A stretch of DNA of 54,751 nt, taken from IMG/VR virus record IMGVR_UViG_2579779067_000001, one strand, 5' to 3'. Below, piece by piece: positions 13,532-50,729 of this stretch; the first letter of the stretch is position 1, and each line of letters opens with the position of its first letter. The notes under the pieces are model-generated. The model saw only the letters and a program-made list of their open reading frames with translations. It did no database searches and was not told the DNA's origin. The translations under genes and the position numbers were made by a program. The stretch comes from a virus. Taxonomy: Duplodnaviria > Heunggongvirae > Uroviricota > Caudoviricetes.

Positions 13532-13550
13532 GACGGCCATATTGGCCGTC
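13532..13550. terminator. bidirectional hairpin between convergent Q and moron genes
   Basis: perfect inverted repeat GACGGCCA-TAT-TGGCCGTC in AT-rich context. Confidence 0.5.
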
Positions 13551-14736
13551 AGCTAAATAAATATGTAATAGCATAAGGCGTAAGTAAAAAGTAGAATCTA
13601 AATGTAAGATATAAGCCACATAAAACTATAATTCCTAATGAGGCAAAAACAACTTTCTGAACAAGCAATCTTGTGGTTAAACTATCAAATGTATCCTTTA
13701 TATCTTCGTAAATAGCCTTGAAGTTATATTCTGCTTGTTGTTTTTTATGATTTAACTCATCATTTATTGCTGTTAAAGTTTGCCATTGATTAAATAGAAC
13801 AAATAGAATCATAATAGTGAAGAACAATGCACCCAACACTACAGCTGTGTTTATTAATGCTTGACTATCCCAACCATTAGCCTGCTTCATTTGAGTCGCA
13901 ACGATAATTGTTGCGACGGGGATACCTAATATCTGATTTTGTATGTCACTGAATACTTTATGTATTTTCCCCATCTCTTCTATTTTGGCTACTCGTAACT
14001 GATCCAGTATTTTCTCGTAAGAAAAACCAGAAACGAATACTTTGTATCCTTTTTGATAACTTTCATAAAGTTGTCCTAAATCCCTTAACATGAAGGAAAA
14101 AGAGGTTTCTTTAGTTTTAGATTCACATGATGATTTTATACTACTTGCTAAAATAGTAAGTTTTTGATCTTTATGCGTATCTTCTGCAAAGTTTGCGATC
14201 AAATTATGAATCAGATCTCCATTAACATTCATAAGATCATCGCTAGAATAATTTACTGGAATTTTTAGTACGTTGGATTCGACGAATACCAATTCAAAAT
14301 TTGTTTCATCTAAATAAGCAGAACAATCTTTGAATAAAGTAATTAAGCTCAAAACATCTCTGTACTTGGATATAATAGCAGGCGACTTTTTATCCCTGTT
14401 GTGATAATTAAGTTCGATTATAAAGAAGTTACTGGCTTCCTTTATCCTATTTTTAGGATTTTTTAAATACTCATTAAAAGAGAAATGTAGCTGCCCCAAT
14501 CGTAATTTGGGGGGGGTTATATGTAAGGTTATAGTTTGGCCTAACTCAATGTTGCCAGATTCAAGGGTGATGCCAAAATCATGGGGATTCTCTGTGATAT
14601 CGTTGATGATGTCACAGAGCTCCTCGTTTGAAAGAATGAGTGATGCTTCAGATAGGGTACCTGCAAATGTAGCGGCCTTGTAAATAGTCACTAAGTCTTT
14701 GAAGGTTCTCTGATTGTTACTGCTCATCCTCTTCAC
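13549..14736 (-). CDS. membrane protein of unknown function (soluble N-terminal domain + 2-3 C-terminal TM helices)
   Basis: 395-aa ORF; AT-rich; hydrophobic segments ALINTAVVLGALFFTIMILFVLF and VVFASLGIIVLCGLYLTFRFYFLL; 20-nt overlap with upstream gene. Confidence 0.7.
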   Translation of the reverse strand: MKRMSSNNQRTFKDLVTIYKAATFAGTLSEASLILSNEELCDIINDITENPHDFGITLESGNIELGQTITLHITPPKLRLGQLHFSFNEYLKNPKNRIKEASNFFIIELNYHNRDKKSPAIISKYRDVLSLITLFKDCSAYLDETNFELVFVESNVLKIPVNYSSDDLMNVNGDLIHNLIANFAEDTHKDQKLTILASSIKSSCESKTKETSFSFMLRDLGQLYESYQKGYKVFVSGFSYEKILDQLRVAKIEEMGKIHKVFSDIQNQILGIPVATIIVATQMKQANGWDSQALINTAVVLGALFFTIMILFVLFNQWQTLTAINDELNHKKQQAEYNFKAIYEDIKDTFDSLTTRLLVQKVVFASLGIIVLCGLYLTFRFYFLLTPYAITYLFS

Positions 14737-15751
14737 CTAATTCTGATAAGATCTCTGATCTTAGCGTATCCGGAATCTCGGTAAGTATCAATTTATCGTT
14801 TTCTGAATCATAAAGAACGCTGCCATCATGCAAGGCCGCACGCTCGAATTTCAGAGACCAATGTTTGGACTTTCCTTTGAAACTAACAAGCCCACGTATA
14901 ACGTTGCCATCAGGCACGAACCCATCAGAGAACTCCAGATCGTCATTGGTTAACTTTTCAACTAACAACTCAGGAGCAGTTGGCCATATCTCGTTTGCAA
15001 AAATTTGAGTGTCGAAAGTTTCACCAGAACGATTTAAATTTTTTAATTTTTCATGAGCCTTATTTAGGAACTCTTCACGTGCCTCTGGTTCAAAACCTCT
15101 TTCAGTAGCAAATTCTAAAAGTGCATTCCGTAATTTTGTTGTTTCTTGTTTGGCAATTAGAATATCGTTGCAACCTAAAAACTTTTTGAAATAACCTGCT
15201 ACTGAATTTTGCCCCTTTAGAAAGCTAATATATCTCTCTTTGCCATTCTGGCGCCCAGTTAAGTCAATTCGTCCCGCTACTCGAAGTTTAGCAATGTCTA
15301 GATATTCACTTTCTTGAATTTCAAAATCGTGGACTGAAGAGCCAACTGCTGATGTTAGGATTGCAACCATCAAATAATGATTTCCATTTACCTCATTATG
15401 GGCAATTATTACATAACCACCAGTAGACATTGATTCATCATCGGCTCTGGCTTTTAAATGATTGATCATTCGGATACTAGTATCATAAAAACTATGTGTT
15501 TTATTTACGAAATAATCATCAACGATATTACCCATAGGGTAACTATCGCGGTCATCTTCAAATTTCCCATATCCTTTACCTGCTCTCCCAGAGTACCTTT
15601 CAGTAAGTGCGTTAGAGAGGTCTTTTGATGCTTGCTGAACAGGTTTTTCTGAAGGACAAGGAATAATGGTGGCTAACCCCTGTTGTTCCTTGTTCATAAT
15701 GTGAACAATAAACTTATGAGTGATATTAGTGGGGGTCGCTGATGCAGTCAT
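14717..15751 (-). CDS. YejK/NdpA-family nucleoid-associated protein homolog
   Basis: 344 aa; by-eye alignment to E. coli YejK (GGYVIIAHNEVNGNHYLMVAILTS vs [30 protein letters not shown]...ERYISFLKG vs RIDLTE...TRYLTFLKG); AGGA SD before ATG. Confidence 0.75.
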   Translation of the reverse strand: MTASATPTNITHKFIVHIMNKEQQGLATIIPCPSEKPVQQASKDLSNALTERYSGRAGKGYGKFEDDRDSYPMGNIVDDYFVNKTHSFYDTSIRMINHLKARADDESMSTGGYVIIAHNEVNGNHYLMVAILTSAVGSSVHDFEIQESEYLDIAKLRVAGRIDLTGRQNGKERYISFLKGQNSVAGYFKKFLGCNDILIAKQETTKLRNALLEFATERGFEPEAREEFLNKAHEKLKNLNRSGETFDTQIFANEIWPTAPELLVEKLTNDDLEFSDGFVPDGNVIRGLVSFKGKSKHWSLKFERAALHDGSVLYDSENDKLILTEIPDTLRSEILSELGEEDEQ

Positions 15752-29701: not shown

Positions 29702-31534
29702 ATGGCTGAATTTGAGCTTAAGGCGTTGATCACCGGTGTCGACAGGCTTTCTCCCGCGCTGTCGAAAATGCAAAAGAAAATCCGGGGATTTAAACGCCAG
29801 GCGGAAGAAGCGTCACAGGGTGGGCTGGCGCTTGGTGGCGGACTGGCAGCGGGTCTGACGCTTTCCCTGAAATCTTATGCCGATCAGGAAAACGCCGCCA
29901 CCGGGCTGAAAGTCGCCATGATGGATGCGAACGGCGAGGTTGGAAAGAGCTTTCAGGACATCAATAAACTGGCTATTGGCCTGGGTAACCAGCTACCCGG
30001 TACAACGGCTGATTTCCAGAACATGATGCAGATGCTGGTGCGTCAGGGGATCCCGGCAGAAAACATTCTTGGCGGTGTGGGTAAAGCGACAGCTTATCTT
30101 GCGGTACAACTGAAAAAAACACCGGAAGCGGCTGCCGAGTTTGCCGCAAAGATGCAGGATGCTACCGGAACGGCGTCAGAAGACATGATGGGGCTGTTCG
30201 ACACTATCCAGAAGGCGTTTTATCTGGGCGTTGACGATACCAACATGTTGTCCTTCTTCACTAAAACCAGCTCTGTTCTGAAGATGGTGAACAAGGACGG
30301 TCTTCAGGCTGCACAGAGCCTTGCCCCCATCAGCGTCATGATGGATCAGATGGGGATGAACGGGGAGTCGGCAGGTAACGCCCTGCGAAAAGTTATCCAG
30401 TCCGGATTAAGCGTTAAGAAAATCAGGGACGTCAATAAAATCATGGCCCGCCAGAAACTCGGGGTACAGCTCGATTTTACTGACGGCAAAGGGAGTTTTG
30501 GCGGTCTTGATAACATGTTCAGGCAACTGGCAAAGCTGCGACAACTGACCGACGTTAAACGAACTGGTGTACTTAAGGCAATATTTGGTGATGATGCCGA
30601 AACCCTTCAGGTGGTCAATGCACTAATCGATAAAGGAAAGGATGGCTACGATCAGATCCAGCAGAAGATGAATAAACAGGCCAGCCTGAATAAACGTGTT
30701 CAGGCACAGCTTGGTACGCTGTCCAACCTGTGGGAGGCAATGACAGGGACCGCAACTAACGGCCTTGCGGCTATTGGCGGTGCATTTTCTGGTGACGCTA
30801 AAAATATCACGCAATGGCTGGGGGAGTTGGGGGAGAAATTCACGAAGTTTGCGGATGAAAATCCCCGGGTTATTCGCGGCGTCGTCGGGCTTGCTGCCGG
30901 TCTTGCGATTCTGAAACTGGGATTGATGGGCGTTGGCGGTGCCATCAGTATTGTCAGCAGGATCATGTCGATGACGCCGATTGGCATGATTGCGACGGCG
31001 ATAGCCCTGGCTGCGGGATTAATTATCACTAACTGGGATGTTGTCGGACCTTATTTTAAGAAACTCTGGGAAACCATTGGTCCTTATTTTGAGGCTGGCT
31101 GGGAACTCCTTAAGAAAGTTTTTGCCTGGTCGCCGCTGGGGATGGTGATCAATAACTGGGGGCCGGTTGTTAAGTGGTTTCAGGATATGTGGGACAAGCT
31201 GAAGCCAATTATTGAGTGGTTTACCGACAGTTCCGGTGACACGGTCGATGCCATTAACTCTGCGCAGTGGGGCGCGGGTGCTTATGATGCTTATGGGACG
31301 GGAATACCGGCGCGGGGATACACACCTTATCCGGCGGTGGATCTGGCTCAGTCAAACAACGCCTCCGATGCCACAGCCCCGAATCCCTTCATGATTAACA
31401 AAGCTTCTGCGCCAAAAGTTGATGGTGAGATCAAGGTCTCTTTTGTGAATTCGCCTCCGGGTATGCGGGTTATGGAAACACGTTCTAGTGACATTGATAT
31501 TAATCACGATGTTGGGTACACCAGATTTAGGTAA
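29702..31534 (+). CDS. tail tape measure protein
   Basis: 610 aa; Ala/Gly-rich with hydrophobic segments; follows chaperone. Confidence 0.85.
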   Translation: MAEFELKALITGVDRLSPALSKMQKKIRGFKRQAEEASQGGLALGGGLAAGLTLSLKSYADQENAATGLKVAMMDANGEVGKSFQDINKLAIGLGNQLPGTTADFQNMMQMLVRQGIPAENILGGVGKATAYLAVQLKKTPEAAAEFAAKMQDATGTASEDMMGLFDTIQKAFYLGVDDTNMLSFFTKTSSVLKMVNKDGLQAAQSLAPISVMMDQMGMNGESAGNALRKVIQSGLSVKKIRDVNKIMARQKLGVQLDFTDGKGSFGGLDNMFRQLAKLRQLTDVKRTGVLKAIFGDDAETLQVVNALIDKGKDGYDQIQQKMNKQASLNKRVQAQLGTLSNLWEAMTGTATNGLAAIGGAFSGDAKNITQWLGELGEKFTKFADENPRVIRGVVGLAAGLAILKLGLMGVGGAISIVSRIMSMTPIGMIATAIALAAGLIITNWDVVGPYFKKLWETIGPYFEAGWELLKKVFAWSPLGMVINNWGPVVKWFQDMWDKLKPIIEWFTDSSGDTVDAINSAQWGAGAYDAYGTGIPARGYTPYPAVDLAQSNNASDATAPNPFMINKASAPKVDGEIKVSFVNSPPGMRVMETRSSDIDINHDVGYTRFR

Positions 31535-31543
31535 AGACGAACA

Positions 31544-31561
31544 GGGAGGGCCGCCCCTCCC
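31544..31561. terminator. bidirectional hairpin between tape measure gene and antisense moron
   Basis: GGGAGGG-CCGC-CCCTCCC. Confidence 0.55.
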
Positions 31562-31566
31562 TGAAC

Positions 31567-31971
31567 TTACTGTGCGAACACGCAATTTCGGCCTGATGGG
31601 GAGCCGACAATTCTGGACATTTTTTCGCAAATAACAGTTACCTGTTCTCCTTTTTTAAGAGCAGCAGCTGTTGATTTTTCAGAGTCTTGCATCTCCATTC
31701 TTGCTGGCATGAATTCATTTTCAGTTCTGAATTTAATAATTATAGAGTCAGTAAAGTCCTTATCAATGGATTGTACGATACCTCTAACGGCGATTAATTT
31801 ACCTTTTAACTGTTCATCGGTAGCGACTTCATTTTCTTCATACTCTTTAAACAGCTGTCGAGCAGTAGTGTTGTAGATTTCTTTTTGCGGTGCCGCAGCT
31901 TCCGTATCGGATGAGTATGAAGAATTAGAGCCTTTATCGTTATTGCCTGCAAAATATCCAATAATCACCAA
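31567..31971 (-). CDS. antisense moron: putative secreted/membrane-anchored protein
   Basis: 134-aa track ORF (TTG start); frame stays open upstream to give KKLLKWILYIFIGLVIIGYFAG signal-anchor; AAGGTG SD 5 nt before an ATA codon at 32013-32011; AT-rich. Confidence 0.5.
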   Translation of the reverse strand: MVIIGYFAGNNDKGSNSSYSSDTEAAAPQKEIYNTTARQLFKEYEENEVATDEQLKGKLIAVRGIVQSIDKDFTDSIIIKFRTENEFMPARMEMQDSEKSTAAALKKGEQVTVICEKMSRIVGSPSGRNCVFAQ

Positions 31972-32123
31972 CCCGATGAAAATATATAAAATCCATTTTA
32001 ATAATTTCTTTATGTTATCACCTTAATGCTAATAATTTATATAGTTACAAATGGTAATGGCTACCACTACAAATTATGGCATTACCAGTAAATATTACTA
32101 CTGATAATAAATATGGGACTTAT

Positions 32124-33452
32124 ATGACGTGGAAAGACAGACTTCAGGATGCGTCATTTCGCGGCGTGCCGTTTAAGGTTGAAGAAGAAAGTGCGGGAAC
32201 CGGTCGTCGTGTGGAAACACATGAATACCCGAACCGCGACAAACCCTATACCGAAGACCTGGGGAAAATCACTTTCCGCCCGTCCATCACGGCTTATGTG
32301 GTGGGAGATGACTGCTTTGACCAGCGTGATCTCCTGATTGAAGCGCTGAATAAACCAGGTCCCGGCACGCTTGTCCACCCGACATACGGTGAGGTGAAAG
32401 TCTGTGTTGACGGGGAAGTCCGGGTCAGCACATCGAAGAGTGAAGGGCGTATTGTCCGCTTTGACCTGAAGTTTGTCGAAGCGGGAGAACTCTCTTACCC
32501 CACATCAGGCGTGGCGACGGCGCAGACGCTGATGTCATCCTGTTCTGCACTGGATGACTGCATCAGTGACAGCTTCAGCGGTTTCAGTATCGATGGCGTG
32601 GCGGATTTTGTGCAGAACGACGTTATCGGTAATGCCAGCACAATGCTTGGGTATGTTTCTGATGCGATGAAAGTGGTGGATTCTGCTGTATCGGATGCCG
32701 CCAGGCTGTTGCAGGGGGATATCTCGGTACTTCTGCCGCCGCCATCGTCAGGAAAAAATTTCGTTGAGCAGGTGCAGAAAATGTGGCGTACCGGTAAACG
32801 CCTTTATGGTAACGCCAGCGACCTGGTCACCATGATCAAAATGCTTTCTGGTGTCAGCCTCGGCAGCGATTTGCAACCGCGCGGCGTCTGGAAAACGGAC
32901 AGTAAAACCACCGCCACAGCGACGCAGCAGCGTAACGTGGTTGCCAGCACTCTTCGTACGACTGCAATCAGCGAAGCAGCGTATGCCGTCACACGATTGC
33001 CTGCGCCAACAACTCCCGCGGTGATGCAGAATGCCGCAGTGGGGCAGTCAACAACACCCGCGCAGAGCACCGGCTGGCCTTCCGTCACGCATCCGGCACT
33101 GAACAATGCACCTGCGGTGAAAAACACAGTTGACCTGCCAACGTGGGAAGAACTGACCGACATTCGCGACACACTGAATACGGCAATTGATAAGGAGTTG
33201 TCCCGTACAACCAGTGATGCGCTGTTTCTGGCGCTGCGCCGGGTGAAAGCAGATCTGAATGCGGATATCAACACGCGCCTTGAACAGTCTGCGCGGATCA
33301 TTCAGCGCACGCCGGATGAGGTTTTACCCGCGCTGGTGCTGGCGGCGACCTGGTTTGATAACGCGGCGCGTGACGTGGACCTTATCCGGCGTAATGCTAT
33401 TACGCATCCCGGCTTTGTGCCGGTGATCCCTCTGAAGGTGCCAGTGCAATGA
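32124..33452 (+). CDS. DNA circulation protein (Mu gp43-like)
   Basis: internal ATG at 32124 (MTWKDRLQDASFRGVPF...). Confidence 0.7.
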   Translation: MTWKDRLQDASFRGVPFKVEEESAGTGRRVETHEYPNRDKPYTEDLGKITFRPSITAYVVGDDCFDQRDLLIEALNKPGPGTLVHPTYGEVKVCVDGEVRVSTSKSEGRIVRFDLKFVEAGELSYPTSGVATAQTLMSSCSALDDCISDSFSGFSIDGVADFVQNDVIGNASTMLGYVSDAMKVVDSAVSDAARLLQGDISVLLPPPSSGKNFVEQVQKMWRTGKRLYGNASDLVTMIKMLSGVSLGSDLQPRGVWKTDSKTTATATQQRNVVASTLRTTAISEAAYAVTRLPAPTTPAVMQNAAVGQSTTPAQSTGWPSVTHPALNNAPAVKNTVDLPTWEELTDIRDTLNTAIDKELSRTTSDALFLALRRVKADLNADINTRLEQSARIIQRTPDEVLPALVLAATWFDNAARDVDLIRRNAITHPGFVPVIPLKVPVQ

Positions 33453-38727: not shown

Positions 38728-39795
38728 TTAATGAAATTTATCTCGGATGAATTGTTGCGATGGTTTTTCAATAAATATATATGACATATAGCTAATTGCC
38801 ATTAATGTAAGCATGAATAAAATGAATACCTTGGGGCTGTAAAAAAGATCGCGTCCATAGCCAATCTTGTCAGCTAAATAAACAACAATGATTTGCAAAG
38901 GAAAATGTAAAAGATAAGATGAATAACTGATATCGCCCAACCATTCAATTTTTTTTCCAAAATCGTTTCGTATTGCGCTAATTGATACAAGGAAAAAGAT
39001 TATGGAGGTAAATCCGAATAAGATAATTGAGAATATATCTGCTACTTGCAGGGTAAAGATAACTCCCCATGAGATCAATAGAAAAACACAAGCAAAAATA
39101 AAAAATAACTTTGCGCTAATATTTTTTATGGCCGCAATCGTAATTTTATAAGTCAGACCACCAATAAAGAAAGAGAATGCGCCGATCATTATGGGATTGT
39201 TAATTTTGAAAAAGTAGTACGACAATGCAACTATTAAAATTGATATGAATGTTGTTTTTGATGTGAACTTGCATAATATAAAAAATATCATGTACATAAG
39301 TACTTCAATCGACACGGACCATGTCGGGGCGTTGAAGGACCAACCTCGCTCAAATCCCCATGATTGAATCATCAATAAATTCAGAATGGCATGGTAAATG
39401 TCATTCATAGGATAAACAAAAAAATAATTATGACTTTTAAAGAAAATAATTTGTAATATTGCCACGGCAGCAAATGTAAATATATAAAGTGGATATAATC
39501 TACTGACACGGTTAACTATAAAAGTTTTTGCTGAGGTTTTATTGCTGTGTATATTGTCAGCGTATAGATAAAAAAATATGAATCCAGAAATCATAAAAAA
39601 CAATTCGACAGCATATAAACCGTAATGATAAAAGACGGAAAAAAATTCATAAAAAGGTTGGCGGTTTATGATTATGTCAGATGCAGCATTCTTTTTCATA
39701 AAAAAATGTTGCCAATGCCATAACACAACGGAAAGTGCGGCAAATCCTCTCAGAACATCCAGGGTATATATTCTCTTCCCAAAAACATTCGTCAC
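38728..39795 (-). CDS. acyltransferase family 3 membrane protein (O-antigen/LPS O-acetyltransferase-like)
   Basis: 355 aa; multi-TM; N-terminal LDVLRGFAALSVVLWHWQHFF signature; AT-rich; at prophage right end. Confidence 0.8.
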   Translation of the reverse strand: MTNVFGKRIYTLDVLRGFAALSVVLWHWQHFFMKKNAASDIIINRQPFYEFFSVFYHYGLYAVELFFMISGFIFFYLYADNIHSNKTSAKTFIVNRVSRLYPLYIFTFAAVAILQIIFFKSHNYFFVYPMNDIYHAILNLLMIQSWGFERGWSFNAPTWSVSIEVLMYMIFFILCKFTSKTTFISILIVALSYYFFKINNPIMIGAFSFFIGGLTYKITIAAIKNISAKLFFIFACVFLLISWGVIFTLQVADIFSIILFGFTSIIFFLVSISAIRNDFGKKIEWLGDISYSSYLLHFPLQIIVVYLADKIGYGRDLFYSPKVFILFMLTLMAISYMSYIFIEKPSQQFIRDKFH

Positions 39796-40345: not shown

Positions 40346-41215
<870 letters not shown>

Positions 41216-42811: not shown

Positions 42812-43978
42812 ATGCCCCTAAATGATATGCAGATTCGCCGTGCTAAACCTGAAGCTAAAGCCTATACACTTGGGGATGGGCAAGGGTTGTCTTTACTTGT
42901 AGAGCCAAATGGAAGTAAAAGTTGGCGATTTCGTTACCGCTATGCAGGTAAGCCTAAAATGATCTCGCTTGGTGTCTATCCAACGATCACACTTGCTGAA
43001 GCTCGTTCTCGCCGTGATGAGGCACGAAAAATAGTGGCCGAGGGAAAAAATCCTAGTGAGGTTCGAAAAGAACAAAAACTAGCATTAAGAATTCAATCTG
43101 AGAACGCATTCGAAAAGATTGCCAGAGAGTGGCATCAGATGAAATCGGCAAAATGGTCTGCTGGGTATGCCTCAGATATTATTGAAGCGTTCCAGAATGA
43201 TATTTTTCCGTATGTGGGGGCGAGGCCTGTAGGGGAAATTAAACCGCTAGAATTGCTAAATGTACTGCGTAAAATTGAGAAGCGTGGTGCATTGGAGAAA
43301 ATGCGCAAAGTGCGGCAACGTTGCTCAGAGGTTTTTCGATATGCCATTGCTACTGGAAGAGCAGAGTTTAATCCTGCGGCAGATCTGTCCAGTGCCCTTG
43401 AAGTTCATAAATCAAATCATTTTCCTTTCTTAAAATCAGATGAGATACCTGATTTTCTGCGTGCTTTAGATAGTTATACAGGAAGCCGACTTGTTCAGAT
43501 TGCCACAAAATTATTAATGGTTACGGGGGTTAGAACTATCGAGTTACGAGCAGCATTATGGCAAGAGTTTGATCTAGATAACGCTATTTGGGAAATTCCT
43601 GCTGAGAGAATGAAAATGCGTAGGCCGCACCTTGTCCCCTTATCGACGCAGGCGCTAGGCTTTCTTAATGAACTCAAATCTATGACAGGAAATTATCGTT
43701 ATGTTTTTCCTGGACGGAATGATCCAAATAAACCTATGAGTGAGGCAAGTGTTAATCAACTTATCAAACGAATAGGCTATGCTGGAAAACTTACAGGACA
43801 TGGGTTTAGGCATACATTATCAACAATTCTTCATGAAAATGGCTTTAATACCGCTTGGATTGAAATGCAACTTGCTCATGTAGATAAAAACTCTATAAGA
43901 GGAACATATAATCACGCCCAATATTTTGAAAAGCGAAAGGTGATGATGCAATGGTATTCAGATAATATTTTTAGTTAA
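42812..43978 (+). CDS. int: P4-type tyrosine integrase
   Basis: 388 aa; N-terminal GLSLLVEPNGSKSWRFRYRYAGK arm-binding pattern; C-terminal HGFRHT catalytic region. Confidence 0.9.
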   Translation: MPLNDMQIRRAKPEAKAYTLGDGQGLSLLVEPNGSKSWRFRYRYAGKPKMISLGVYPTITLAEARSRRDEARKIVAEGKNPSEVRKEQKLALRIQSENAFEKIAREWHQMKSAKWSAGYASDIIEAFQNDIFPYVGARPVGEIKPLELLNVLRKIEKRGALEKMRKVRQRCSEVFRYAIATGRAEFNPAADLSSALEVHKSNHFPFLKSDEIPDFLRALDSYTGSRLVQIATKLLMVTGVRTIELRAALWQEFDLDNAIWEIPAERMKMRRPHLVPLSTQALGFLNELKSMTGNYRYVFPGRNDPNKPMSEASVNQLIKRIGYAGKLTGHGFRHTLSTILHENGFNTAWIEMQLAHVDKNSIRGTYNHAQYFEKRKVMMQWYSDNIFS

Positions 43979-44024
43979 TATAATTGTTTTTTAGTTTTAG
44001 TATTTATTTTTTTATAAAAAAGAG

Positions 44025-44040
44025 AAGGGGCTAGCCCCTT
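44025..44040. terminator. bidirectional hairpin between convergent int and hotspot gene
   Basis: AAGGGGCTAGCCCCTT palindrome. Confidence 0.55.
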
Positions 44041-44049
44041 CGAAAATTA

Positions 44050-45645
44050 CTAATTATTGTCATCGTGAAATAAGTTTATGAAGACAATGTCATCCCTTTT
44101 CATATATTTATCTGCTATTGATTTTGTTTTTGTTATTAATTTTTTTGTGATATCTTCATTGTGATAACAATACATTATGTCTTCTAATTTTATACTGGGG
44201 TTAGACAGGTGATATTCATTTTTAGAGTAAACTCCTTTTCCGTTAATGGTGATTATAACAAGCACTATAAAATCACCTAGTTTAGTGGCGATAACTGCTA
44301 AACAACATGCATTTATTTCACTTGGAGGTGATTTTATTTTATTCTTAGATGTCAGTTTCATTGCTGGGGAATAATTTGGGTTACTTAGTAATTGCCCAAT
44401 TATGTTAGTATTATCACTATGTATACCCAATTTTGTAATAGTTGTCTTAACTTGCCCCTGAATACTTAATCGGTCAGATATAATAATAGCATTCTCTGTT
44501 GTATTTAATGCCTGAATACAGCTTTCAATTAATGAGGTGTCTTGTATTAGTTCTTTATTGGCATTTGTTATTAAAGTCATTGGGTTATGACTGTTAGAAA
44601 TATTTATTTCAAATTCCAGCATGTCCTTCTGTTCATAAATCCATCGCATGATGGTTAAATTATCTTTGATCTCAAATAGATTCAATATGTTGTCATATGA
44701 ATCAAATCGATATGTAAGGAGTCCTGTTTTAAGATAAATTAAAATGTCGAAATAAGAGGATTTTAATCTTGCTTTGATATGCTTATCTGGAGCATTGATG
44801 GATAGTGGACTAACATATAATTTACATTCGAGGCGAATGGTTTTTTTTGATGTCATGTTTGTTATTTTCAATATGGCATCTGTTTCAAAATTTTCAACCC
44901 CAAACGATAAATCGGCTTCAGAAAAACTCTTGTTCTCAAGAGGCATAGAGATATTAAATCGTTCGTCAAAGCACTTTATATTTCTAACTTTCGCTTTATT
45001 AACCCATCCAAGAGACGCATTGATCAGATTATCGTATTCAACTTCCGCTTTTGTCTGAAAAGTTAATTTATATCCTCCATTTTCATAACCTAAATTTTTT
45101 AAGTGATTTATTTTCTTTTCAGTATAAACTTCCATACCTTCATTTACGTATGATTCAATTGTAGACTTTAAATGTTCACCTGTTATTGCGTCTAATTTAT
45201 GGGTGCTGTCAAATGATACTGTAATGTTAATTTTGTTCAGTTTTTTGGGTTCTTTTAAAATAGAGTTTTCTCTGGCTCTTTGTAATGTTTTAAACATTAG
45301 ATTTTTATCAAAGTGTCTAACATAAACTGCTTGTGGAGTATTGCTTTTATTATACTCAATGAAAAAAAAGAAAGCGGGGAGCTTACTTCCGCATAAACGC
45401 ATCATATTTGATAAAGTAATTTGTACTTTTTTTGAAGTACCATCAGTTGCTTTGACTTGAATTTTACACTCGATAGGGGATGCACTTTTATCTATCATTG
45501 GGTGAGTTGAAAATTGTGTAGGGAAGTCAACAATGAAATCCCATCCAGCACTGTCTTTTAATGATGGGTTGTATATTAACCCAACAGATGCGCAAAGTTG
45601 CATAAATAATGCTTCGCCCATGCTTCCTAGATCCCGTTCTTGCAC
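44050..45645 (-). CDS. P4-hotspot protein of unknown function (possible N-terminal PD-(D/E)xK-like nuclease motif)
   Basis: 531 aa; very AT-rich; GTG start with AAGGTG SD; N-terminal GEALF...GWDFIVDF...ECKIQVK. Confidence 0.7.
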   Translation of the reverse strand: MQERDLGSMGEALFMQLCASVGLIYNPSLKDSAGWDFIVDFPTQFSTHPMIDKSASPIECKIQVKATDGTSKKVQITLSNMMRLCGSKLPAFFFFIEYNKSNTPQAVYVRHFDKNLMFKTLQRARENSILKEPKKLNKINITVSFDSTHKLDAITGEHLKSTIESYVNEGMEVYTEKKINHLKNLGYENGGYKLTFQTKAEVEYDNLINASLGWVNKAKVRNIKCFDERFNISMPLENKSFSEADLSFGVENFETDAILKITNMTSKKTIRLECKLYVSPLSINAPDKHIKARLKSSYFDILIYLKTGLLTYRFDSYDNILNLFEIKDNLTIMRWIYEQKDMLEFEINISNSHNPMTLITNANKELIQDTSLIESCIQALNTTENAIIISDRLSIQGQVKTTITKLGIHSDNTNIIGQLLSNPNYSPAMKLTSKNKIKSPPSEINACCLAVIATKLGDFIVLVIITINGKGVYSKNEYHLSNPSIKLEDIMYCYHNEDITKKLITKTKSIADKYMKRDDIVFINLFHDDNN

Positions 45646-46055
45646 ATTATCACCTTTCTAACAAATAATGTTCCATATCATCAGTTAACATCAAGTTTGA
45701 AAAACACAATTGATGCTGCGAACTAAGTTACAAGTATTCTAATAAAAAATTAAATTTGCAGGCAACAATGTATTGTAGTTGAACAAGATATGTAAAACAC
45801 GATGCAACATTGAAGTTATCCAATTCGAAACAAGTTTCCATTAACAGTGGCAGAATGCCTTTGCTGCAGTTGATTAAGATAACACCTTAGATGTCTTACG
45901 GAGCCAAGCCTTCTATGATCTATATCAGTTGTTTTCACACTATCTCCATTATGTAAAACATTATGTTTTATGACAGTTGAATGCGTTAGATTCCTTAGGC
46001 TCTTTTAGCTAAGGTATTTGGGGTTACTGGATTTCAATTTCCTTTTTAGCGCGCA

Positions 46056-46074
46056 GTGCTTTCCCCGCCTCGCC
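46056..46074 (-). other. P2/P4-type cos site (19-nt cohesive end sequence)
   Basis: GTGCTTTCCCCGCCTCGCC is the reverse complement of GGCGAGGCGGGGAAAGCAC (P2/P4 cos, memory). Confidence 0.5.
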
Positions 46075-46238
46075 CGCCCGCTTTGCGGGGCGGTTTTAAT
46101 GCAGTTGTACTGACACGCTCAGACTGCGCCGGGAATGGCGCGGTCTGCAGAAAATGAGGCAGGGAAACGCATGCAAAGCCATGCACCTTATCGATGCATG
46201 GCTTTTTTCAGTAAAAACGGGCGGATTTTCGGGGAATT

Positions 46239-46811
46239 TTACACAGACTGACGTGATGCCAGTTGCGCACTTTTACGCGAAAAAATCATGTTCTGCGCAG
46301 GGGTGAATTTTTCACGGCTGTCATCCACCGAAGCCGCGTCAGGCCTGAATCCGATGGTCGTTAAAATGTCGCTATCCTGTGCGGAATAATTAATTTTTTC
46401 CCCCTTCGCAAGCCAGGACAGAAGGGCTTCACGCAGGGCATCTGTGGCACGCTGTATGGCACAGTTTCGGGCAATGGCCGTCAGCTCACTGTAGCCCATC
46501 AGCTCCGGTGCCAGTGCCGCCGCCAGTGCTGTGCCGTGCTGCTGCATAAAATCATTCAGCCGGTCGCGGATGCTGATGTGCTGAACGGCTTCATGCGAAC
46601 GAATATAACGACCGGCGGCCTGATTCACCTGCCATTTTCTGACTTCGATAATATTGCGTAATTCGTCCAGGCGACTGACGTTTCTGCCTTCCCCGGACAG
46701 AAGCCGCAGATATTCCTGTTCGGCCGCAGCCAGCTCATTTTTGCGTTGCAGCCATGCTGCTTTGTTATTCTGACAGGTGTCAAAGGCCTGCTGTAAGGCT
46801 GTGCTTTCCAT
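46239..46811 (-). CDS. psu: polarity suppression protein Psu
   Basis: 190 aa, the size of P4 Psu; order sid-delta-psu. Confidence 0.8.
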   Translation of the reverse strand: MESTALQQAFDTCQNNKAAWLQRKNELAAAEQEYLRLLSGEGRNVSRLDELRNIIEVRKWQVNQAAGRYIRSHEAVQHISIRDRLNDFMQQHGTALAAALAPELMGYSELTAIARNCAIQRATDALREALLSWLAKGEKINYSAQDSDILTTIGFRPDAASVDDSREKFTPAQNMIFSRKSAQLASRQSV

Positions 46812-46884
46812 CGTTATCTCTTTCTCATCATGCTGAAGAATAAAAATACGGTGTGCGGCGACGGCCGGGGTTAACCGGCAGCCC

Positions 46885-47385
46885 TCATTCCAGACGCAGC
46901 GAATATGATTGTGTTTTTAACCGTACTGGCGGCAGTTCCTGTTTTTCATGCAGGCGTTCTGCCAGTTCGTCCGGCGTGACCGGGCGGACAATGAAGCGGG
47001 TGATGGTCTGAAGCGTTTTAAACACCAGACCACAGCCCGGATCCGTGCACACATAAAAACGCTCGGTGACTTCCTGAGACAGACGCCGCGATGTTCTTGA
47101 CAGTGCAAGGCCTTTACATCTCCGACAACAATATCCGGTAACAAGCATTCTTTTCGGGCGTTTCATGCTACCGGAGGCTGACGTCAGTGAATCGCGGTAT
47201 CTCTGTTTGCCTGAAATGTATTCCATTCCTGAATCTTTACAGTCAGAGAAAAAGCTTTCACTCGCTTCAAATGTCGCAGAGCAATAAATATTCCGGCACT
47301 GTGCAATCATTATCTTGGTGCCATCGTCCATGAAATGTGCGCGACGGGTGTGAGCAACATGTCCACACGACGGGCAGTAAATCAT
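46885..47385 (-). CDS. delta: late transcription activator Delta (tandem Ogr-type zinc fingers)
   Basis: 166 aa; CPSCGH...CRNIYCSATF repeated twice. Confidence 0.85.
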   Translation of the reverse strand: MIYCPSCGHVAHTRRAHFMDDGTKIMIAQCRNIYCSATFEASESFFSDCKDSGMEYISGKQRYRDSLTSASGSMKRPKRMLVTGYCCRRCKGLALSRTSRRLSQEVTERFYVCTDPGCGLVFKTLQTITRFIVRPVTPDELAERLHEKQELPPVRLKTQSYSLRLE

Positions 47386-48134
47386 GACAGCAGCCCTCTG
47401 GCCTTAAGCTCTGCTCCCTGCTGGTCTATTTTGTCCTGCCACACCTTGCGCTGTGCCGGTGTGCCTGCCACCTCATAATCCATGTGCGGAAGTGTTGCCG
47501 CTGACAGTCCGGTCAGCCGGAGAACCGGCTCGCCGGTGAGGCTGATTTGCATCTGTTTAATTTTCTGTTCCAGCGATGATTTCACCTGCTGCATGACAGC
47601 CTTTTCCGGTGCGACGCAGCCCTGATGGCCGGTGGTGTTGGCGAGCGGATTTTCCTGTACCAGGATACTCAGATGCATTGCCCGGACAAGCGCCTCACAG
47701 GTTTCATTCAGGGCGTGTTCCAGCTCATGCTCTGCATACAGACTCAGAAGGTGATGATGTGCCTTCCGGTAGGCGGTGGCCGTGCTGTCACACGCCCCTT
47801 TCAGGCGTTCACGTTCAAAATTCAGCACCACGGCCAGATTGTCATATTCCTGTACCAGCTCCCGGCGTGCCACGCGCTCAATGTGGCGCTGTTTCAGCTC
47901 GTCGCTCAGGACACCACCGGCTGCACGAAAGGCCGTGCGCCAGTCGTCAGCGTCGTTTCCGTCGGCCTGCGCCAGCGCATTTTTTTCCTGCTCTGCCCGT
48001 TCAATGGCCGTGACGGTCTCATCCATCAGGCGGGCGTTCTCAAGATGGGCGGCTCTGGCCTTTTCCAGTTGTGCCAGCGCGGGTTGCAGATATTCAGGGA
48101 TGGTGTTGTCAGACATTTTCCGGCTCCTCGTCAC
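47382..48134 (-). CDS. sid: capsid size determination protein Sid
   Basis: 250 aa, alpha-helical; position upstream of delta and psu. Confidence 0.75.
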   Translation of the reverse strand: MTRSRKMSDNTIPEYLQPALAQLEKARAAHLENARLMDETVTAIERAEQEKNALAQADGNDADDWRTAFRAAGGVLSDELKQRHIERVARRELVQEYDNLAVVLNFERERLKGACDSTATAYRKAHHHLLSLYAEHELEHALNETCEALVRAMHLSILVQENPLANTTGHQGCVAPEKAVMQQVKSSLEQKIKQMQISLTGEPVLRLTGLSAATLPHMDYEVAGTPAQRKVWQDKIDQQGAELKARGLLS

Positions 48135-48283
48135 TTCAGGTTAAGAAAATTGTGACGTACACCGGACAACAACACGACGCATTGCAGATGTGCCAGCCCT
48201 GACACAGGAGACTCATCCTCAGACCGGCAAGCCAGGAAAAGGTCGCAGGAAAAACCGGCTTACTGTTTGTTTTTTTATATTTT

Positions 48284-48390
48284 ACTGTTCACCTCTGTTC
48301 ACCATAAGAAAAAAGATAAGTAATACAGTAAGTTAAAGGGTGAACAATCGCAGTAATGACTGTTCACCGTCTGTTCACCACTGTTCACCC
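48284..48390. repeat. P4 ori-like iteron cluster (six TGTTCACC octamers)
   Basis: TGTTCACC at about 48286, 48295, 48338 (reverse), 48360, 48371, 48381. Confidence 0.65.
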
Positions 48391-48668
48391 GTTGATGGGC
48401 TTTTTGTGCTGTTTATTACTGTTTGTTTTTATTAATTCGCCGGGAATGAATAAGAAAAAACGATTTGTATTTCACTATAAAAATTACGAATTGCTTTAAG
48501 TGGCTTTAAATGACTTTAAGTGGAGATGAACAAAAAACACACAAGCATTGTAAGGCTGCCGGAACAAATCCCCCCTGTTGCGTCTGCTGAAAATATTCAC
48601 AAAATAAAGCGCTACCCGAAGCCGGACGGACTTATCCGGTGCTGTATGGACATTAACGAGGTAGCCCG

Positions 48669-48935
48669 ATGCAAGCTGTTTTTTCTTCCCCGTCTCCCGC
48701 CCCTGTGACGCCACTGATGCCGCTGCCGGACATCACGCAGGAGCGTTTTTTACGTCTGCCGGAAGTGATGCACCTGTGCGGCCTGTCACGCTCGACCATC
48801 TACGAACTCATCCGTAAGGGGGAATTTCCGCCGCAGGTGAGTCTTGGCGGTAAAAATGTGGCCTGGCTGCACTCTGAAGTCACCGCATGGATGGCCGGGC
48901 GCATTGCCGGACGCAAACGGGGGTACGACGCATGA
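48669..48935 (+). CDS. Vis/AlpA-family HTH regulator (P4 orf88-like)
   Basis: 88 aa; [28 protein letters not shown]lpA-type HTH. Confidence 0.7.
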
Positions 48936-49531
48936 TGATGCCTGTTCTGCAAAAAGTCCCTTTTTCTGGCTTGCCTTTTTCCGGCATTTGCGGATATAGT
49001 TTTTCCGCTGCCGCAAAATCGGCAGCCGGGCGTGAGAACCCGAGTATGTTATCGGCGACATATGACGCGCCATGCGTCTTTTTTTGTGTCGCAATCAACG
49101 CCACAGAGCGCCAGATTATGGTGTGGTGTGTGGTCAGTCGAGCAGATGGCACTCCGTGCATCCTGCCCGCGTCCGCTCATTATGCCGCAGAGTCAATGGT
49201 AGCTCAGGCGGGGCAGCCTCCGGGCTGGCCGGTATCCGTTAGAGCCGGTATTTCCACCCCCGTCTGGGCTATCGCCATCGAGCGTGGAAACTCCGGCGAT
49301 AGCGTAACCTGCTATCTAACGGAGGCTGCCATCATGGCTACAACCCTTACCCCTTCACACCCTGAATTTGTCTTTGTGTTTGCGGCTGTCCGTCGCGCAG
49401 ACCGTCATCCCCGTATCTGTATGCTTCGCACCGTCGCCGGTGATGAACGCAGTGCCCGCCGTTCCCTTGTCCGTGACTATGTGCTCTCCCTTGCTGCCCG
49501 TCTGCCGGTGGTGGAGGTGTCCCGTGCGTAA
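48932..49531 (+). CDS. hypothetical P4-like protein (199 aa from internal ATG)
   Basis: ATG at 48932 gives 199 aa, matching a P4 ORF size (memory). Confidence 0.4.
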
Positions 49532-49811
49532 TAAAAAAGCCCCTCAGACCGTCTCAGCACGTCATGACGCCCGTGAACACCTCAGCATTGAGGCTTACCA
49601 TAAGCTCAACCGCGCCAGCGCCGTATCCCAGTTTGTTGGGGGGGATTTGATTCACCGTGAACTCTCCGGCCTGCATCAGCTCTACATTCCGCATATTTTC
49701 AGCTACCTGAATGAAGATATTGATTTTGTGCTGAATGAGCTGAAAGCCAAAGGCCTGTGCCGCGATTTTCTCGCCCAGCAGAAAGACCGGGGAGACAGGA
49801 CGCATGTTTGA
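49524..49811 (+). CDS. hypothetical P4-like protein (about 95 aa, GTG start)
   Basis: GTG overlapping upstream stop; protein-like segment of track ORF 49368..49811. Confidence 0.4.
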
Positions 49812-50259: not shown

Positions 50260-50394
50260 TTAAAAAACGACACCCGAAAAATTAAATGTGCGTATTCGCG
50301 CAGGGATACGCACGTCTTCAGGAGACGCAGATATGCCTTATCAGTTAATGCAACCGGCACGGAATGCAGTCATCTGTCACAGGGAGGAACACAA

Positions 50395-50715: not shown

Positions 50716-50729
50716 AGGAGAACAACACC

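What the first reader, a model, noticed from the sequence alone, without database searches (positions are those of the whole stretch)
31567..32013. Antisense moron inside the tail module encoding a signal-anchored protein, with ATA where the start codon should be
A minus-strand AT-rich gene sits between the tape measure gene and the DNA circulation gene, closed by a hairpin at 31544-31561. The track ORF begins at a TTG (31971), but the frame stays open upstream to a TAA and encodes a classic signal/anchor (KKLLKWILYIFIGLVIIGYFAG). A strong SD (AAGGTG) lies 5 nt upstream of an ATA codon at 32013-32011, the context expected for an ATG start. Small envelope proteins encoded antisense within tail regions are typical superinfection-exclusion factors (Cor/Llp-like logic).
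Basis: partly seen in the sequence, partly recalled or inferred. Interest (0 to 1): 0.55.

Follow-up and report, generated by a model that had tools for sequence, protein, structure and literature searches.

The report
Prophage moron gene with mutated start
A small add-on gene inside the tail genes of an E. coli prophage encodes a membrane-tethered periplasmic protein of unknown, probably phage-blocking, function. In this strain its ATG start codon has mutated to ATA, and the same mutation has arisen several times independently in related prophages.

Summary
Window 31538-32119 is a 582-bp AT-rich cassette on the minus strand, with a promoter, a gene and a terminator. It sits between the tape-measure and DNA-circularization genes of an SfV/SfII-like prophage integrated at thrW. 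The same slot is empty in phages SfV, SfI and SfII, so the cassette is a textbook moron.

The gene (31567-32013) encodes a 148-aa protein. It has an N-terminal signal-anchor helix, a disordered Ser/Thr-rich linker and an OB-fold domain (Pfam PF12869; closest solved structure 3F1Z). The codon at 32013-32011 is ATA here. It is ATG in 51 of 56 complete E. coli genomes with this 5' region, and in every more distant homologue. ATA is therefore a point-mutated start, not a programmed one, and should cut translation to a few percent of normal or less.

The same G-to-A change sits on five prophage backbones, and at least three of those events are independent. Other knock-outs of the gene also occur (W7*, Q109*, a 143-bp 5' deletion, a frameshift, an IS1 insertion).

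Function is not shown. In other prophages, homologues lie directly downstream of CI repressors or antisense beside tape-measure genes. That placement points to expression in the lysogen. A superinfection-exclusion or other envelope role is the best guess. The protein is not related to Cor or Llp.

The parts
31538..32119 (-). Moron cassette (582 bp), made up of a terminator, the gene and a promoter region. It replaces a 53-bp intergenic stretch found in phage SfII.
   Evidence: Homology to SfII stops at window 31537 and resumes at 32120. GC is 34-40% against 50-60% in the flanks.
31542..31563 (-). Intrinsic-terminator-like hairpin (9-bp stem, 7 G-C) followed by a T-rich tail, 3 nt after the stop codon.
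   Evidence: -20.4 kcal/mol, z = -3.4.
31567..32013 (-). Coding sequence as annotated in ATG-bearing relatives: 148 aa plus stop, RefSeq WP_000734912.1 'OB-fold protein'. In this window the first codon is ATA.
   Evidence: Pfam PF12869 at 2.9e-19.
32011..32013 (-). ATA at the position of the start codon. It is ATG in 51 of 56 complete E. coli genomes and in all distant homologues.
32019..32024 (-). Shine-Dalgarno sequence AAGGTG, 5 nt upstream of the ATA. The in-frame upstream stop TAA (32025-32023) overlaps it.
   Evidence: AGGTG or AAGGA is conserved at this spacing in homologues.
32073..32081 (-). Candidate extended -10 promoter element TGCCATAAT. It is the only conserved block in the upstream region across homologous cassettes (TGCTATAAAT, TGCGATAAAT). 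The inferred transcription start is near 32066.
   Evidence: The simple sigma-70 scan found nothing upstream. The E. coli 042 deletion allele starts exactly here.
31945..31995 (-). Codons 7-23, WILYIFIGLVIIGYFAG: the signal-anchor transmembrane helix. It is preceded by MKKLLK (+3 charge).
   Evidence: AlphaFold2 helix at residues 2-21. Kyte-Doolittle maximum of 2.18 at residue 7 and the flanking charges. Conserved in homologues.
31882..31944 (-). Codons 24-44: a variable, Ser/Thr-rich, disordered linker.
   Evidence: pLDDT below 50 for residues 24-39. Length and sequence vary among homologues.
31570..31881 (-). Codons 45-148: the OB-fold domain (PF12869). It carries the invariant motifs NEVA-DE and QSIDKDF and two invariant cysteines (C129, C144).
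31966..31971 (-). In-frame TTG (31971-31969) and GTG (31968-31966), used by ORF callers and by PGAP when the ATG is lost. The 134- or 133-aa product would lack the charged N-terminus and half of the helix.
29702..31534 (+). Left-flanking gene: tail tape measure protein.
   Evidence: Pfam PhageMin_Tail in relatives.
32124..33452 (+). Right-flanking gene: DNA circularization protein (Mu gpN-like).
   Evidence: DNA_circ_N.

Best explanation
This is a genuine prophage moron.

Anatomy (shown from sequence and comparison):
- It is a self-contained, AT-rich minus-strand transcription unit at window 31538-32119.
- It is inserted between the tape-measure and DNA-circularization genes of an SfV/SfII-like prophage with a Mu-like tail, integrated at thrW.
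- It encodes a 148-aa protein of the uncharacterized PF12869 ('tRNA_anti-like' OB-fold) family.

Topology (inferred, not measured):
- The protein is a type II inner-membrane protein.
- The short positively charged N-terminus stays in the cytoplasm.
- One helix anchors the protein in the membrane.
- A flexible linker of about 20 residues holds the OB-fold domain in the periplasm.

The ATA allele (the sequence difference is shown; its effect is inferred):
- In this window the ATG start has mutated to ATA by a single G-to-A transition.
- AUA initiates at roughly 0.02-3% of AUG in E. coli, so this copy is a strong hypomorph or an effective null.
- The downstream TTG and GTG would only give a product without a working membrane anchor.

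Function (inferred, about 40-45% likely):
- The gene is placed where it would be transcribed from the repressed prophage.
- The protein most likely acts at the envelope against incoming phages, as superinfection exclusion at the tail-penetration or DNA-entry step.
- This would resemble how HK97 gp15 works, although the two proteins are unrelated.

Recurrent loss (shown as a pattern; its cause is inferred):
- The start codon has been lost independently several times, and other knock-outs exist.
- This suggests that expression is dispensable or costly in many hosts.

The confidence of 0.5 is for the whole statement including the functional guess. The anatomy, the true start position and the mutant status of ATA are each above 0.9.
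For: Moron status:
- The slot is empty in SfII, SfI, SfV and vB_EcoM-689R6, whose flanks are 96-97% identical to the window. Other phages carry unrelated genes in the same slot.
- GC drops across the cassette.
- A terminator hairpin follows the gene.
- A conserved TGn-extended -10 block lies upstream.

Protein family and fold:
- PF12869 scores 69.5 bits against a cutoff of 23.5.
- The AlphaFold2 model has mean pLDDT 85, with a helix at 2-21, disorder at 24-39 and an OB fold at 46-146.

True start:
- ATG occupies this codon in 51 of 56 complete genomes.
- All 90 database homologues, and all IMG/VR homologues with an intact 5' end, begin M-K-K plus a helix at this position behind a Shine-Dalgarno sequence.

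Periplasmic topology:
- There are three positive charges before the helix and a net negative charge after it.
- Some homologues replace the helix with a lipobox...ISGC in P0067 and ...LSGC in L072.
- Others add an N-terminal zinc-ribbon before the helix.
- Two cysteines are invariant.

Expression in the lysogen:
- The gene is antisense to the late operon here and in diverged relatives, where the OB protein is 72%, the tape measure protein 71% and the DNA circularization protein 66% identical.
- In P2/186-like prophages it lies 16 nt downstream of, and co-oriented with, a CI repressor gene.
- In Burkholderia phage Carl1 it lies in the repressor operon.
- In an E217-like myovirus it sits antisense between the tail chaperone and tape-measure genes.

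Functional hints:
- The closest PHROG (8545, E 1.5e-49) carries the label 'superinfection exclusion Sie-like'.
- One viral structural neighbour is named 'Host cell surface-exposed lipoprotein'.

Effect of ATA:
- AUA initiates at 1-2% (range 0.02-3%) of AUG (bioRxiv 10.1101/063800).

Recurrence:
- Five groups of ATA sequences differ from one another at 71-103 sites in 3.6 kb.
- Three of these groups have ATG-bearing relatives only 1, 5 and 12 differences away.
Against: - No experiment on any family member was found in the searchable literature.
- The PHROG label could not be traced to data.
- There was no PADLOC hit and no NCBIfam hit.
- The OB fold resembles nucleic-acid-binding OB folds, which have no obvious ligand in the periplasm. 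The domain's pI varies from 5.1 to 9.4 among homologues, so the ligand is unknown.
- Some Pantoea homologues sit in a chromosomal island with no obvious phage genes, so a host-physiology role is possible.
- Frequent inactivation argues that the gene gives little benefit in many strains.
- The promoter is inferred from conservation only, and the sigma-70 consensus scan missed it.
- The topology and the disulfide bond are predictions.
Confidence: 0.5

Rival explanations
1. The protein is a lysogenic-conversion or host-fitness factor of the envelope that has nothing to do with phage exclusion. Examples would be stress, serum, colicin or antimicrobial-peptide tolerance, or modulation of an outer-membrane protein. 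The prophage simply carries it as cargo.
For: - The topology is periplasmic and membrane-tethered.
- The gene is expressed from lysogeny-type positions.
- Pantoea homologues sit in a chromosomal island without recognisable phage genes.
- The Serratia homologue lies next to an O-antigen acyltransferase-type conversion gene.
- There is no PADLOC hit.
- From general knowledge, other periplasmic OB-fold proteins of enterobacteria (the YgiW/YdeI BOF family) act in stress tolerance. This was not tested here.
Against: - The gene is repeatedly placed next to CI repressors and tape-measure genes in unrelated phage backbones.
- The closest PHROG is labelled Sie-like.
- The family is strongly prophage-associated.
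Confidence: 0.25
2. The ATA allele is not a dead copy but a selected low-expression allele. Near-cognate initiation at AUA behind the strong Shine-Dalgarno sequence would supply a small, sufficient amount of protein. Recurrent ATG-to-ATA changes would then reflect tuning expression down, not losing the gene.
For: - The same nucleotide changed in at least three, and up to five, prophage lineages, while the rest of the gene, its Shine-Dalgarno sequence and its promoter stay intact.
- In complete genomes, IMG/VR contigs and draft assemblies together, ATA accounts for about as many independent events as all other null lesions combined (W7*, Q109*, the 143-bp deletion, a frameshift, IS1). Yet it is a single mutational target.
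- AUA does initiate measurably in E. coli.
- Selection on start-codon strength has been shown for E. coli lacI (PMC11445065).
Against: - Clear nulls of the same gene are also common. The 143-bp deletion that removes the promoter, start and helix occurs in about 16 of 72 complete genomes.
- G-to-A is the commonest mutation class, so ATA is the expected start-loss outcome.
- Part of the sample was found by searching for the truncated protein, which favours 5' lesions.
- There are no expression data.
Confidence: 0.25
3. The protein is an abortive-infection effector of the AbiP/PdpSau type. A membrane-anchored OB fold would face the cytoplasm, bind phage nucleic acid and trigger membrane damage or a replication block.
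For: - AbiP and PdpSau are prophage- or plasmid-encoded proteins with an N-terminal membrane anchor and an OB-fold domain, and they cause abortive infection (PMC10127798).
- The nearest folds after 3F1Z are nucleic-acid-binding OB domains.
- TcdC, which has a related domain, binds DNA in vitro (PMC3575817).
Against: - The charge distribution predicts that the C-terminus lies outside the cytoplasm.
- Homologues with a lipobox in place of the helix must be extracytoplasmic.
- Homologues with an N-terminal zinc-ribbon before the helix place the OB domain on the opposite, outer side.
- The invariant cysteine pair fits a periplasmic disulfide.
- No sequence match to PADLOC Abi models was found.
Confidence: 0.07
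4. There is no real gene here. The ORF is a chance open frame in AT-rich intergenic DNA, or the ATA is a sequencing or assembly error.
For: Nothing beyond the missing canonical start in this window.
Against: - The Pfam match is strong and the fold prediction is confident.
- There are 90 homologues down to 39% identity with conserved motifs.
- The exact ATG-initiated protein occurs on at least 1000 contigs.
- The ATA allele is reproduced in many independent assemblies.
Confidence: 0.01

Closest known systems
Pfam PF12869 'tRNA_anti-like' OB-fold family. Its founding structure is PDB 3F1Z, a putative nucleic-acid-binding lipoprotein of Klebsiella pneumoniae. RefSeq names members 'OB-fold protein' or 'OB-fold putative lipoprotein'.
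   Different: This member uses an uncleaved transmembrane helix rather than a lipobox. No function is known for any member, so membership says nothing about mechanism.
HK97 gp15, the first described moron. It is an inner-membrane superinfection-exclusion protein encoded in the tail operon beside the tape-measure gene (Cumby et al. 2012; reviewed in PMC3594210).
   Same: Both are small inner-membrane proteins encoded by a self-contained cassette next to the tape-measure gene and expressed from the prophage. One homologue (L069) even occupies the same slot between the chaperone and tape-measure genes.
   Different: The proteins are not homologous. gp15 is YebO-like, and no such Pfam hit was found here. 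This protein has a folded periplasmic OB domain of about 100 residues and is antisense to the tail operon. Exclusion has been demonstrated for gp15 and is untested here.
Cor (phi80, N15, HK022) and T5 Llp, which are outer-membrane lipoprotein exclusion factors that block FhuA.
   Same: Both are small prophage- or phage-encoded envelope proteins encoded in or near tail genes.
   Different: This protein has no lipobox cysteine, and the first cysteine is C129. No sequence similarity appeared in the Pfam or PHROG scans. The predicted location is the inner membrane facing the periplasm, not the outer membrane, and no link to a receptor is known.
PHROG 8545, labelled 'superinfection exclusion Sie-like'.
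   Same: The profile match is strong and full-length (E 1.5e-49, positions 14-176 of 177).
   Different: The label is an inherited annotation. I could not trace it to an experiment, and close relatives are almost absent from the GenBank phage set searched.
AbiP (Lactococcus) and PdpSau (S. aureus prophage), which are membrane-anchored OB-fold abortive-infection proteins.
   Same: Both have an N-terminal membrane anchor followed by an OB-fold domain, are carried by mobile elements and act against phages.
   Different: Their OB domain is described as cytoplasmic and nucleic-acid binding. Here the domain is predicted to be periplasmic. No sequence relationship was detected.
C. difficile TcdC.
   Same: It has an N-terminal membrane anchor plus a C-terminal OB domain, and profile comparison matches that domain to PF12869 (PMC3575817).
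   Different: TcdC belongs to a Gram-positive toxin-regulation locus and has a dimerisation region. It is not prophage cargo and is not a close homologue.

Membership tests
Pfam PF12869 (tRNA_anti-like OB fold) | Profile HMM score above the curated gathering threshold | tested here: met
   69.5 bits against a cutoff of 23.5, E 2.9e-19, residues 2-130. All 89 of 90 homologues with precomputed Pfam domains carry PF12869.
Pfam PF12869 (tRNA_anti-like OB fold) | OB-fold beta-barrel resembling the family structure 3F1Z | tested here: met
Pfam PF12869 (tRNA_anti-like OB fold) | N-terminal membrane tether (lipobox or hydrophobic helix) placing the domain outside the cytoplasm | tested here: inconclusive
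   The helix at residues 7-23, the positive-inside charge pattern and the lipobox variants in homologues all predict this. Localisation was not measured.
Moron (Juhala/Hendrix definition) | Extra DNA that is present in one phage and absent at the same site in close relatives | tested here: met
   SfII, SfI, SfV and vB_EcoM-689R6 match both flanks at 96-97% identity and have 53 bp where the window has 582 bp.
Moron (Juhala/Hendrix definition) | Own terminator and own promoter | tested here: inconclusive
   The terminator hairpin is clear. The promoter is inferred from a conserved TGn plus -10 block, and the consensus scan found none. No transcript data are available.
Moron (Juhala/Hendrix definition) | Base composition unlike the surrounding genes | tested here: met
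   GC is 34-40% against 50-60%.
PHROG 8545 ('superinfection exclusion Sie-like') | Profile match | tested here: met
   E 1.5e-49, 169 bits, near full length.
PHROG 8545 ('superinfection exclusion Sie-like') | Exclusion of superinfecting phage by the expressed protein | not testable with these tools
   Needs phage challenge of strains carrying the ATG allele.
Cor/Llp outer-membrane lipoprotein exclusion factors | Lipoprotein signal peptide with a lipobox cysteine | tested here: not met
   There is no cysteine before residue 129, and the N-terminus is MKKLLKWILYIFIGLVIIGYFAGNND.
Cor/Llp outer-membrane lipoprotein exclusion factors | Sequence homology to Cor or Llp | tested here: not met
   The only Pfam hits at E <= 1 are PF12869 and a chance KOW match. 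No Cor or Llp PHROG appears among the hits.
HK97 gp15 / YebO family | Sequence homology to gp15/YebO | tested here: not met
   No such family appears in the Pfam or PHROG scans.
AbiP/PdpSau-type membrane-anchored OB-fold Abi proteins | OB domain on the cytoplasmic side, binding nucleic acid | tested here: not met
   This is a prediction only. The charge bias, the lipobox homologues and the zinc-ribbon-helix-OB homologues all place the domain outside the cytoplasm.
Genes with a programmed non-AUG start (such as infC AUU) | The unusual start codon is conserved among orthologues | tested here: not met
   ATG is found in 51 of 56 complete genomes, in 15 of 17 IMG/VR copies with an intact 5' end, and in every more distant homologue.

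The most novel reading that the evidence does not exclude
PF12869 proteins may be a widespread, so far unrecognised class of prophage-encoded exclusion factors with a periplasmic OB fold. Tethered to the inner membrane, they would intercept the incoming tail tip, tape measure protein or DNA. The repeated, site-specific ATG-to-ATA change would then be adaptive down-tuning of a costly envelope protein through start-codon strength, rather than plain gene decay.
Probability: 0.2. Interest if true: 0.6.

Novelty: new member of a known kind. Interest (0 to 1): 0.38.

Why it matters
If the ATG form of this protein blocks phage entry, it would give a function to a whole uncharacterized Pfam family. 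That family is common in prophages of Enterobacterales, Burkholderia and other bacteria. It would also add a structurally new type of exclusion factor, a periplasmic OB fold.

The repeated start-codon loss provides natural pairs of lysogens that differ by one to a dozen bases across the 3.6 kb compared. These pairs are ready-made material for testing what a prophage moron costs and what it gives.

On the practical side, annotation pipelines handle the ATA allele inconsistently. The same gene is called as 148 aa from ATA or as 133 aa from GTG, which hides the fact that these copies are start-codon mutants.

Tried and rejected
- Megablast of the cassette against GenBank phages gave no match. A protein search there found only five distant records, and a second search with the Carl1 homologue added little.
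- PADLOC, NCBIfam and a sequence search of PDB chains gave nothing useful.
- Literature searches for the family name, the Pfam accession and 'OB-fold lipoprotein' found only the TcdC paper and two unrelated Klebsiella genomics papers. A search for 'Sie-like' did not explain the PHROG label, and the Burkholderia prophage paper does not mention the gene.
- Tab and Tai, the tail-assembly-blocking morons, were considered and rejected. They are unrelated cytoplasmic proteins encoded elsewhere in the genome.
- The consensus sigma-70 scan found no promoter upstream of the gene, so I relied on comparative conservation instead.
- I considered a programmed non-AUG start and rejected it, because the ATA is not conserved.
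- I considered a single origin of ATA spread by descent and rejected it. The five ATA groups differ at 71-103 sites, while some have ATG relatives 1-12 differences away. Gene conversion over a very short tract cannot be excluded.
Full report
**1. What is in the sequence**

On the minus strand the frame that ends at the stop 31569-31567 stays open upstream to TAA at 32025-32023. It reads GDN-I-KKLLKWILYIFIGLVIIGYFAGNNDK.... The mechanical ORF list starts this frame at TTG 31971, giving 134 aa. AAGGTG lies at 32024-19 and is separated by ATAAC from ATA at 32013-11.

Three bases after the stop there is a 9-bp, G+C-rich hairpin at 31563-31542 with a T-rich tail. Its folding energy is -20.4 kcal/mol, z = -3.4, and none of 200 shuffles folds as well. 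GC falls to 34-40% across the gene, against 50-60% on both sides.

**2. Identity of the locus**

The 701 bp around the gene match 111 complete E. coli chromosomes, and 54 of these matches are full-length. RefSeq annotates the three genes there as 'phage tail tape measure protein', 'OB-fold protein' (minus strand) and 'DNA circularization protein'.

The window as a whole reads as follows:
- proA;
- tRNA-Thr(CGT), with an integrase next to it;
- a prophage with a CI-type repressor, a terminase and a Mu-like tail module;
- an O-antigen acyltransferase-like gene;
- a PD-T4-3 defence gene and a P4-like satellite.

The tail genes are 96-97% identical to those of the Shigella serotype-converting phages SfII, SfI and SfV.

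**3. It is a moron in the strict sense**

In SfII, homology to the window runs up to 31537 and resumes at 32120. SfII has 53 bp where the window has 582 bp. SfI, SfV and vB_EcoM-689R6 show the same two-piece match. Phage SKA5 and Pantoea phage AH07 carry unrelated genes of 170 and 164 aa in the same slot.

The cassette ends in its own terminator. The simple sigma-70 scan found no promoter upstream. However, an alignment of the upstream regions of four homologous cassettes shows one conserved block: TGCCATAAT here (32081-32073), and TGCTATAAAT or TGCGATAAAT elsewhere. This has the form of an extended -10 element. It would place the transcription start near 32066. This promoter is inferred, not shown.

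**4. The protein**

With M at codon 1 the product is 148 aa. It matches Pfam PF12869 (tRNA_anti-like) at 69.5 bits against a cutoff of 23.5. It also matches PHROG 8545, labelled 'superinfection exclusion Sie-like', at E 1.5e-49. Nothing matched in PADLOC or NCBIfam.

**5. Topology (inferred)**

Four observations agree that the N-terminus is inside and the OB domain is periplasmic:
- MKKLLK (+3) precedes a 17-residue hydrophobic segment, and the 21 residues after it are net acidic.
- There is no acceptable signal-peptidase site (-3 is F or Y; read directly from the sequence), so the helix most likely remains as an anchor.
- Some homologues replace the helix with a lipobox (P0067 ...LISGC; L072 ...TLSGC). 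Others place a zinc-ribbon in front of the helix.
- Two cysteines (C129, C144) are invariant. That fits a periplasmic disulfide, but I could not measure their distance in the model.

**6. The ATA is a mutated ATG**

Aligned to four near-identical loci, the window differs at the start codon only: three of the four have ATG. A 61-nt probe centred on the codon is matched perfectly by 5 of 56 complete genomes: UMNK88, ETEC1749, ETEC4085, and FDAARGOS_1277, whose record has the same length and match coordinates as CREC_5. The other 51 show one mismatch.

All 90 database homologues begin M-K-K plus a helix at the equivalent position. So do the IMG/VR homologues with an intact 5' end, usually 5-8 nt after AGGTG or AAGGA.

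AUA initiates at 1-2% (range 0.02-3%) of AUG in E. coli reporters (bioRxiv 10.1101/063800). The in-frame TTG and GTG at codons 15 and 16 have no proper Shine-Dalgarno sequence. Their product would lack the charged N-terminus and half of the helix. I therefore read this copy as a strong hypomorph or a null. That is an inference, since no expression data exist.

PGAP is inconsistent on this allele. It aa from ATA in UMNK88 and 133 aa from GTG in ETEC1749 and FDAARGOS_1277.

**7. The same mutation arose repeatedly, and other knock-outs exist**

I aligned 3.6 kb around the gene from 31 copies. ATA sequences fall into five groups:
- the window with L018 and L027;
- UMNK88, ETEC1749 and L043;
- FDAARGOS_1277 (L005);
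- L019;
- L020.

These groups differ from each other at 71-103 sites. Three of them have ATG-bearing relatives only 1, 5 and 12 differences away. That means at least three, and possibly five, independent G-to-A events at one nucleotide, unless conversion tracts of a few bases moved the change between backbones.

Other lesions in the same gene:
- TGG to TGA at codon 7 (L017);
- CAA to TAA at codon 109 in strain ET474;
- a 143-bp deletion that removes the -10 block, Shine-Dalgarno sequence, start codon and helix, found in E. coli 042 and about 16 of 72 complete genomes, and in 5 IMG/VR contigs;
- a 3' frameshift (P0002);
- an IS1 insertion that truncates the 3' end.

The exact ATG protein is on at least 1000 contigs. 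The two 133-aa forms are on 31 and 60 contigs, and the deletion form is on 152.

Two caveats apply. Part of the sample was retrieved by looking up the truncated protein, which favours 5' lesions. G-to-A is also the commonest mutation class. Even so, one nucleotide accounts for about as many independent events as all other null lesions together. This points to selection against full expression or to a locally mutable site. The cassette is also less variable than its flanks: 19 of 585 sites vary, against 250 of 3017.

**8. Where relatives sit**

- A 73%-identical gene occupies the same antisense slot in a Buttiauxella prophage.
- Homologues about 72% identical occupy the same slot in diverged Mu-like-tail prophages. 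Their tape measure protein is 71% and their DNA circularization protein 66% identical, so the moron has travelled with this tail module for a long time.
- In P2/186-like prophages the gene lies 16 nt downstream of, and co-oriented with, a CI repressor (PF07022 plus PF16452), divergent from CII.
- In Burkholderia phage Carl1 it is the third gene of the immunity-repressor operon and ends in a terminator facing the tail genes.
- In an E217-like myovirus it lies antisense between the tail chaperone and the tape-measure gene.
- Other copies lie next to an integrase, an HTH repressor or an AAA_15/AAA_21 ATPase, or at a prophage end beside an O-antigen acyltransferase.
- Pantoea copies lie in a chromosomal island without obvious phage genes.

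The common theme is placement where a repressed prophage is transcribed.

**9. Most likely mechanism and its rivals**

Shown:
- the moron anatomy;
- family membership and fold;
- the true start position;
- the mutant status and recurrence of ATA.

Inferred:
- periplasmic topology;
- expression in the lysogen;
- loss of expression from the ATA allele.

Best functional guess (about 40-45%): the protein is an envelope-level block to superinfecting phages. It would act as HK97 gp15 does. That moron is also encoded beside the tape-measure gene, its product inserts into the inner membrane, and it blocks genome entry in a way that depends on the invading phage's tail (PMC3594210).

Rivals:
- an envelope fitness factor unrelated to phages (0.25);
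- an AbiP/PdpSau-like abortive-infection protein (0.07), which the predicted topology disfavours;
- on the nature of the allele, a selected low-expression variant rather than a null (0.25).

**10. Comparison with known systems and novelty**

The gene is a member of PF12869 and PHROG 8545. It is not a member of the Cor/Llp, gp15/YebO, Tab/Tai or AbiP families.

The sequence itself is already in RefSeq under a generic name. No experimental work on any member was found. I class it as a new, uncharacterized member of a known kind: a prophage moron encoding a small envelope protein.

The part that is not in the literature I could search is the repeated start-codon loss. It is moderately interesting and easy to test.

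Noticed in passing
window 40346-41170 (-): A 274-aa GIY-YIG protein matches the PADLOC model for the known defence gene PD-T4-3 at E 2.6e-140. It lies between the end of the SfV-like prophage and the integrase of a P4-like satellite.
   Followed up: partly
window 42812-53063: A second mobile element resembling a P4-like satellite. It has an integrase (42812-43978), Psu (46239-46811, minus), C4 antisense RNA with its a1b1 targets and isrK (48994-49279), and a D5/Toprim primase (51393-53063).
   Followed up: partly
window 13549-15751 (-): Two overlapping minus-strand genes lie inside the prophage, between the early genes and the terminase. One is a 344-aa NA37 nucleoid-associated-family protein. 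The other is a 395-aa protein with no Pfam or PADLOC match. This may be another antisense cargo insert.
   Followed up: partly
window 38728-39795 (-): An Acyl_transf_3 protein sits just after the tail-fibre genes, at the position of the O-antigen acetyltransferase conversion genes of Shigella phages. A Serratia homologue of the OB-fold gene also lies near such an acyltransferase (L013).
   Followed up: no
window 1-2622: proA (Aldedh family), tRNA-Thr(CGT) at 1369-1444 and an integrase at 1459-2622 (minus). From general knowledge this is the thrW attachment site used by SfV/SfII-type phages.
   Followed up: partly
window 31739-31766 (-): A near-consensus sigma-70-like site (TTGATA, 16 nt, TATAAT; 11 of 12 matches) lies inside the OB-fold gene on its own strand. 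It may be a chance match in AT-rich DNA.
   Followed up: no
L089 1417-1929 (phage SKA5); L090 1547-2041 (Pantoea phage AH07): The same slot between the tape-measure and DNA-circularization genes holds unrelated genes of 170 and 164 aa with no Pfam match, co-oriented with the tail genes. The slot is a hot spot for cargo.
   Followed up: partly
L015 (E. coli 042) against window 31938-32081: A 143-bp deletion allele removes the -10 block, Shine-Dalgarno sequence, start codon and membrane helix. PGAP still calls a 128-aa 'OB-fold protein' from another ATA codon. The allele is found in about 16 of 72 complete genomes and on 152 contigs.
   Followed up: yes
window 31538-32119 compared with its flanks, across 31 related loci: The cassette is less polymorphic than the flanking tail genes: 3.2% of sites vary, against 8.3%. 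This is despite the recurrent knock-outs. It suggests that the cassette spread or was exchanged more recently than the backbone diverged.
   Followed up: partly
L010 about 5896-5920; L055 about 145-170: In the Buttiauxella locus and one IMG/VR locus, a hairpin plus T-run lies just upstream of the conserved -10 block on the moron strand. It could insulate the cassette from antisense read-through. The window has no equivalent.
   Followed up: no
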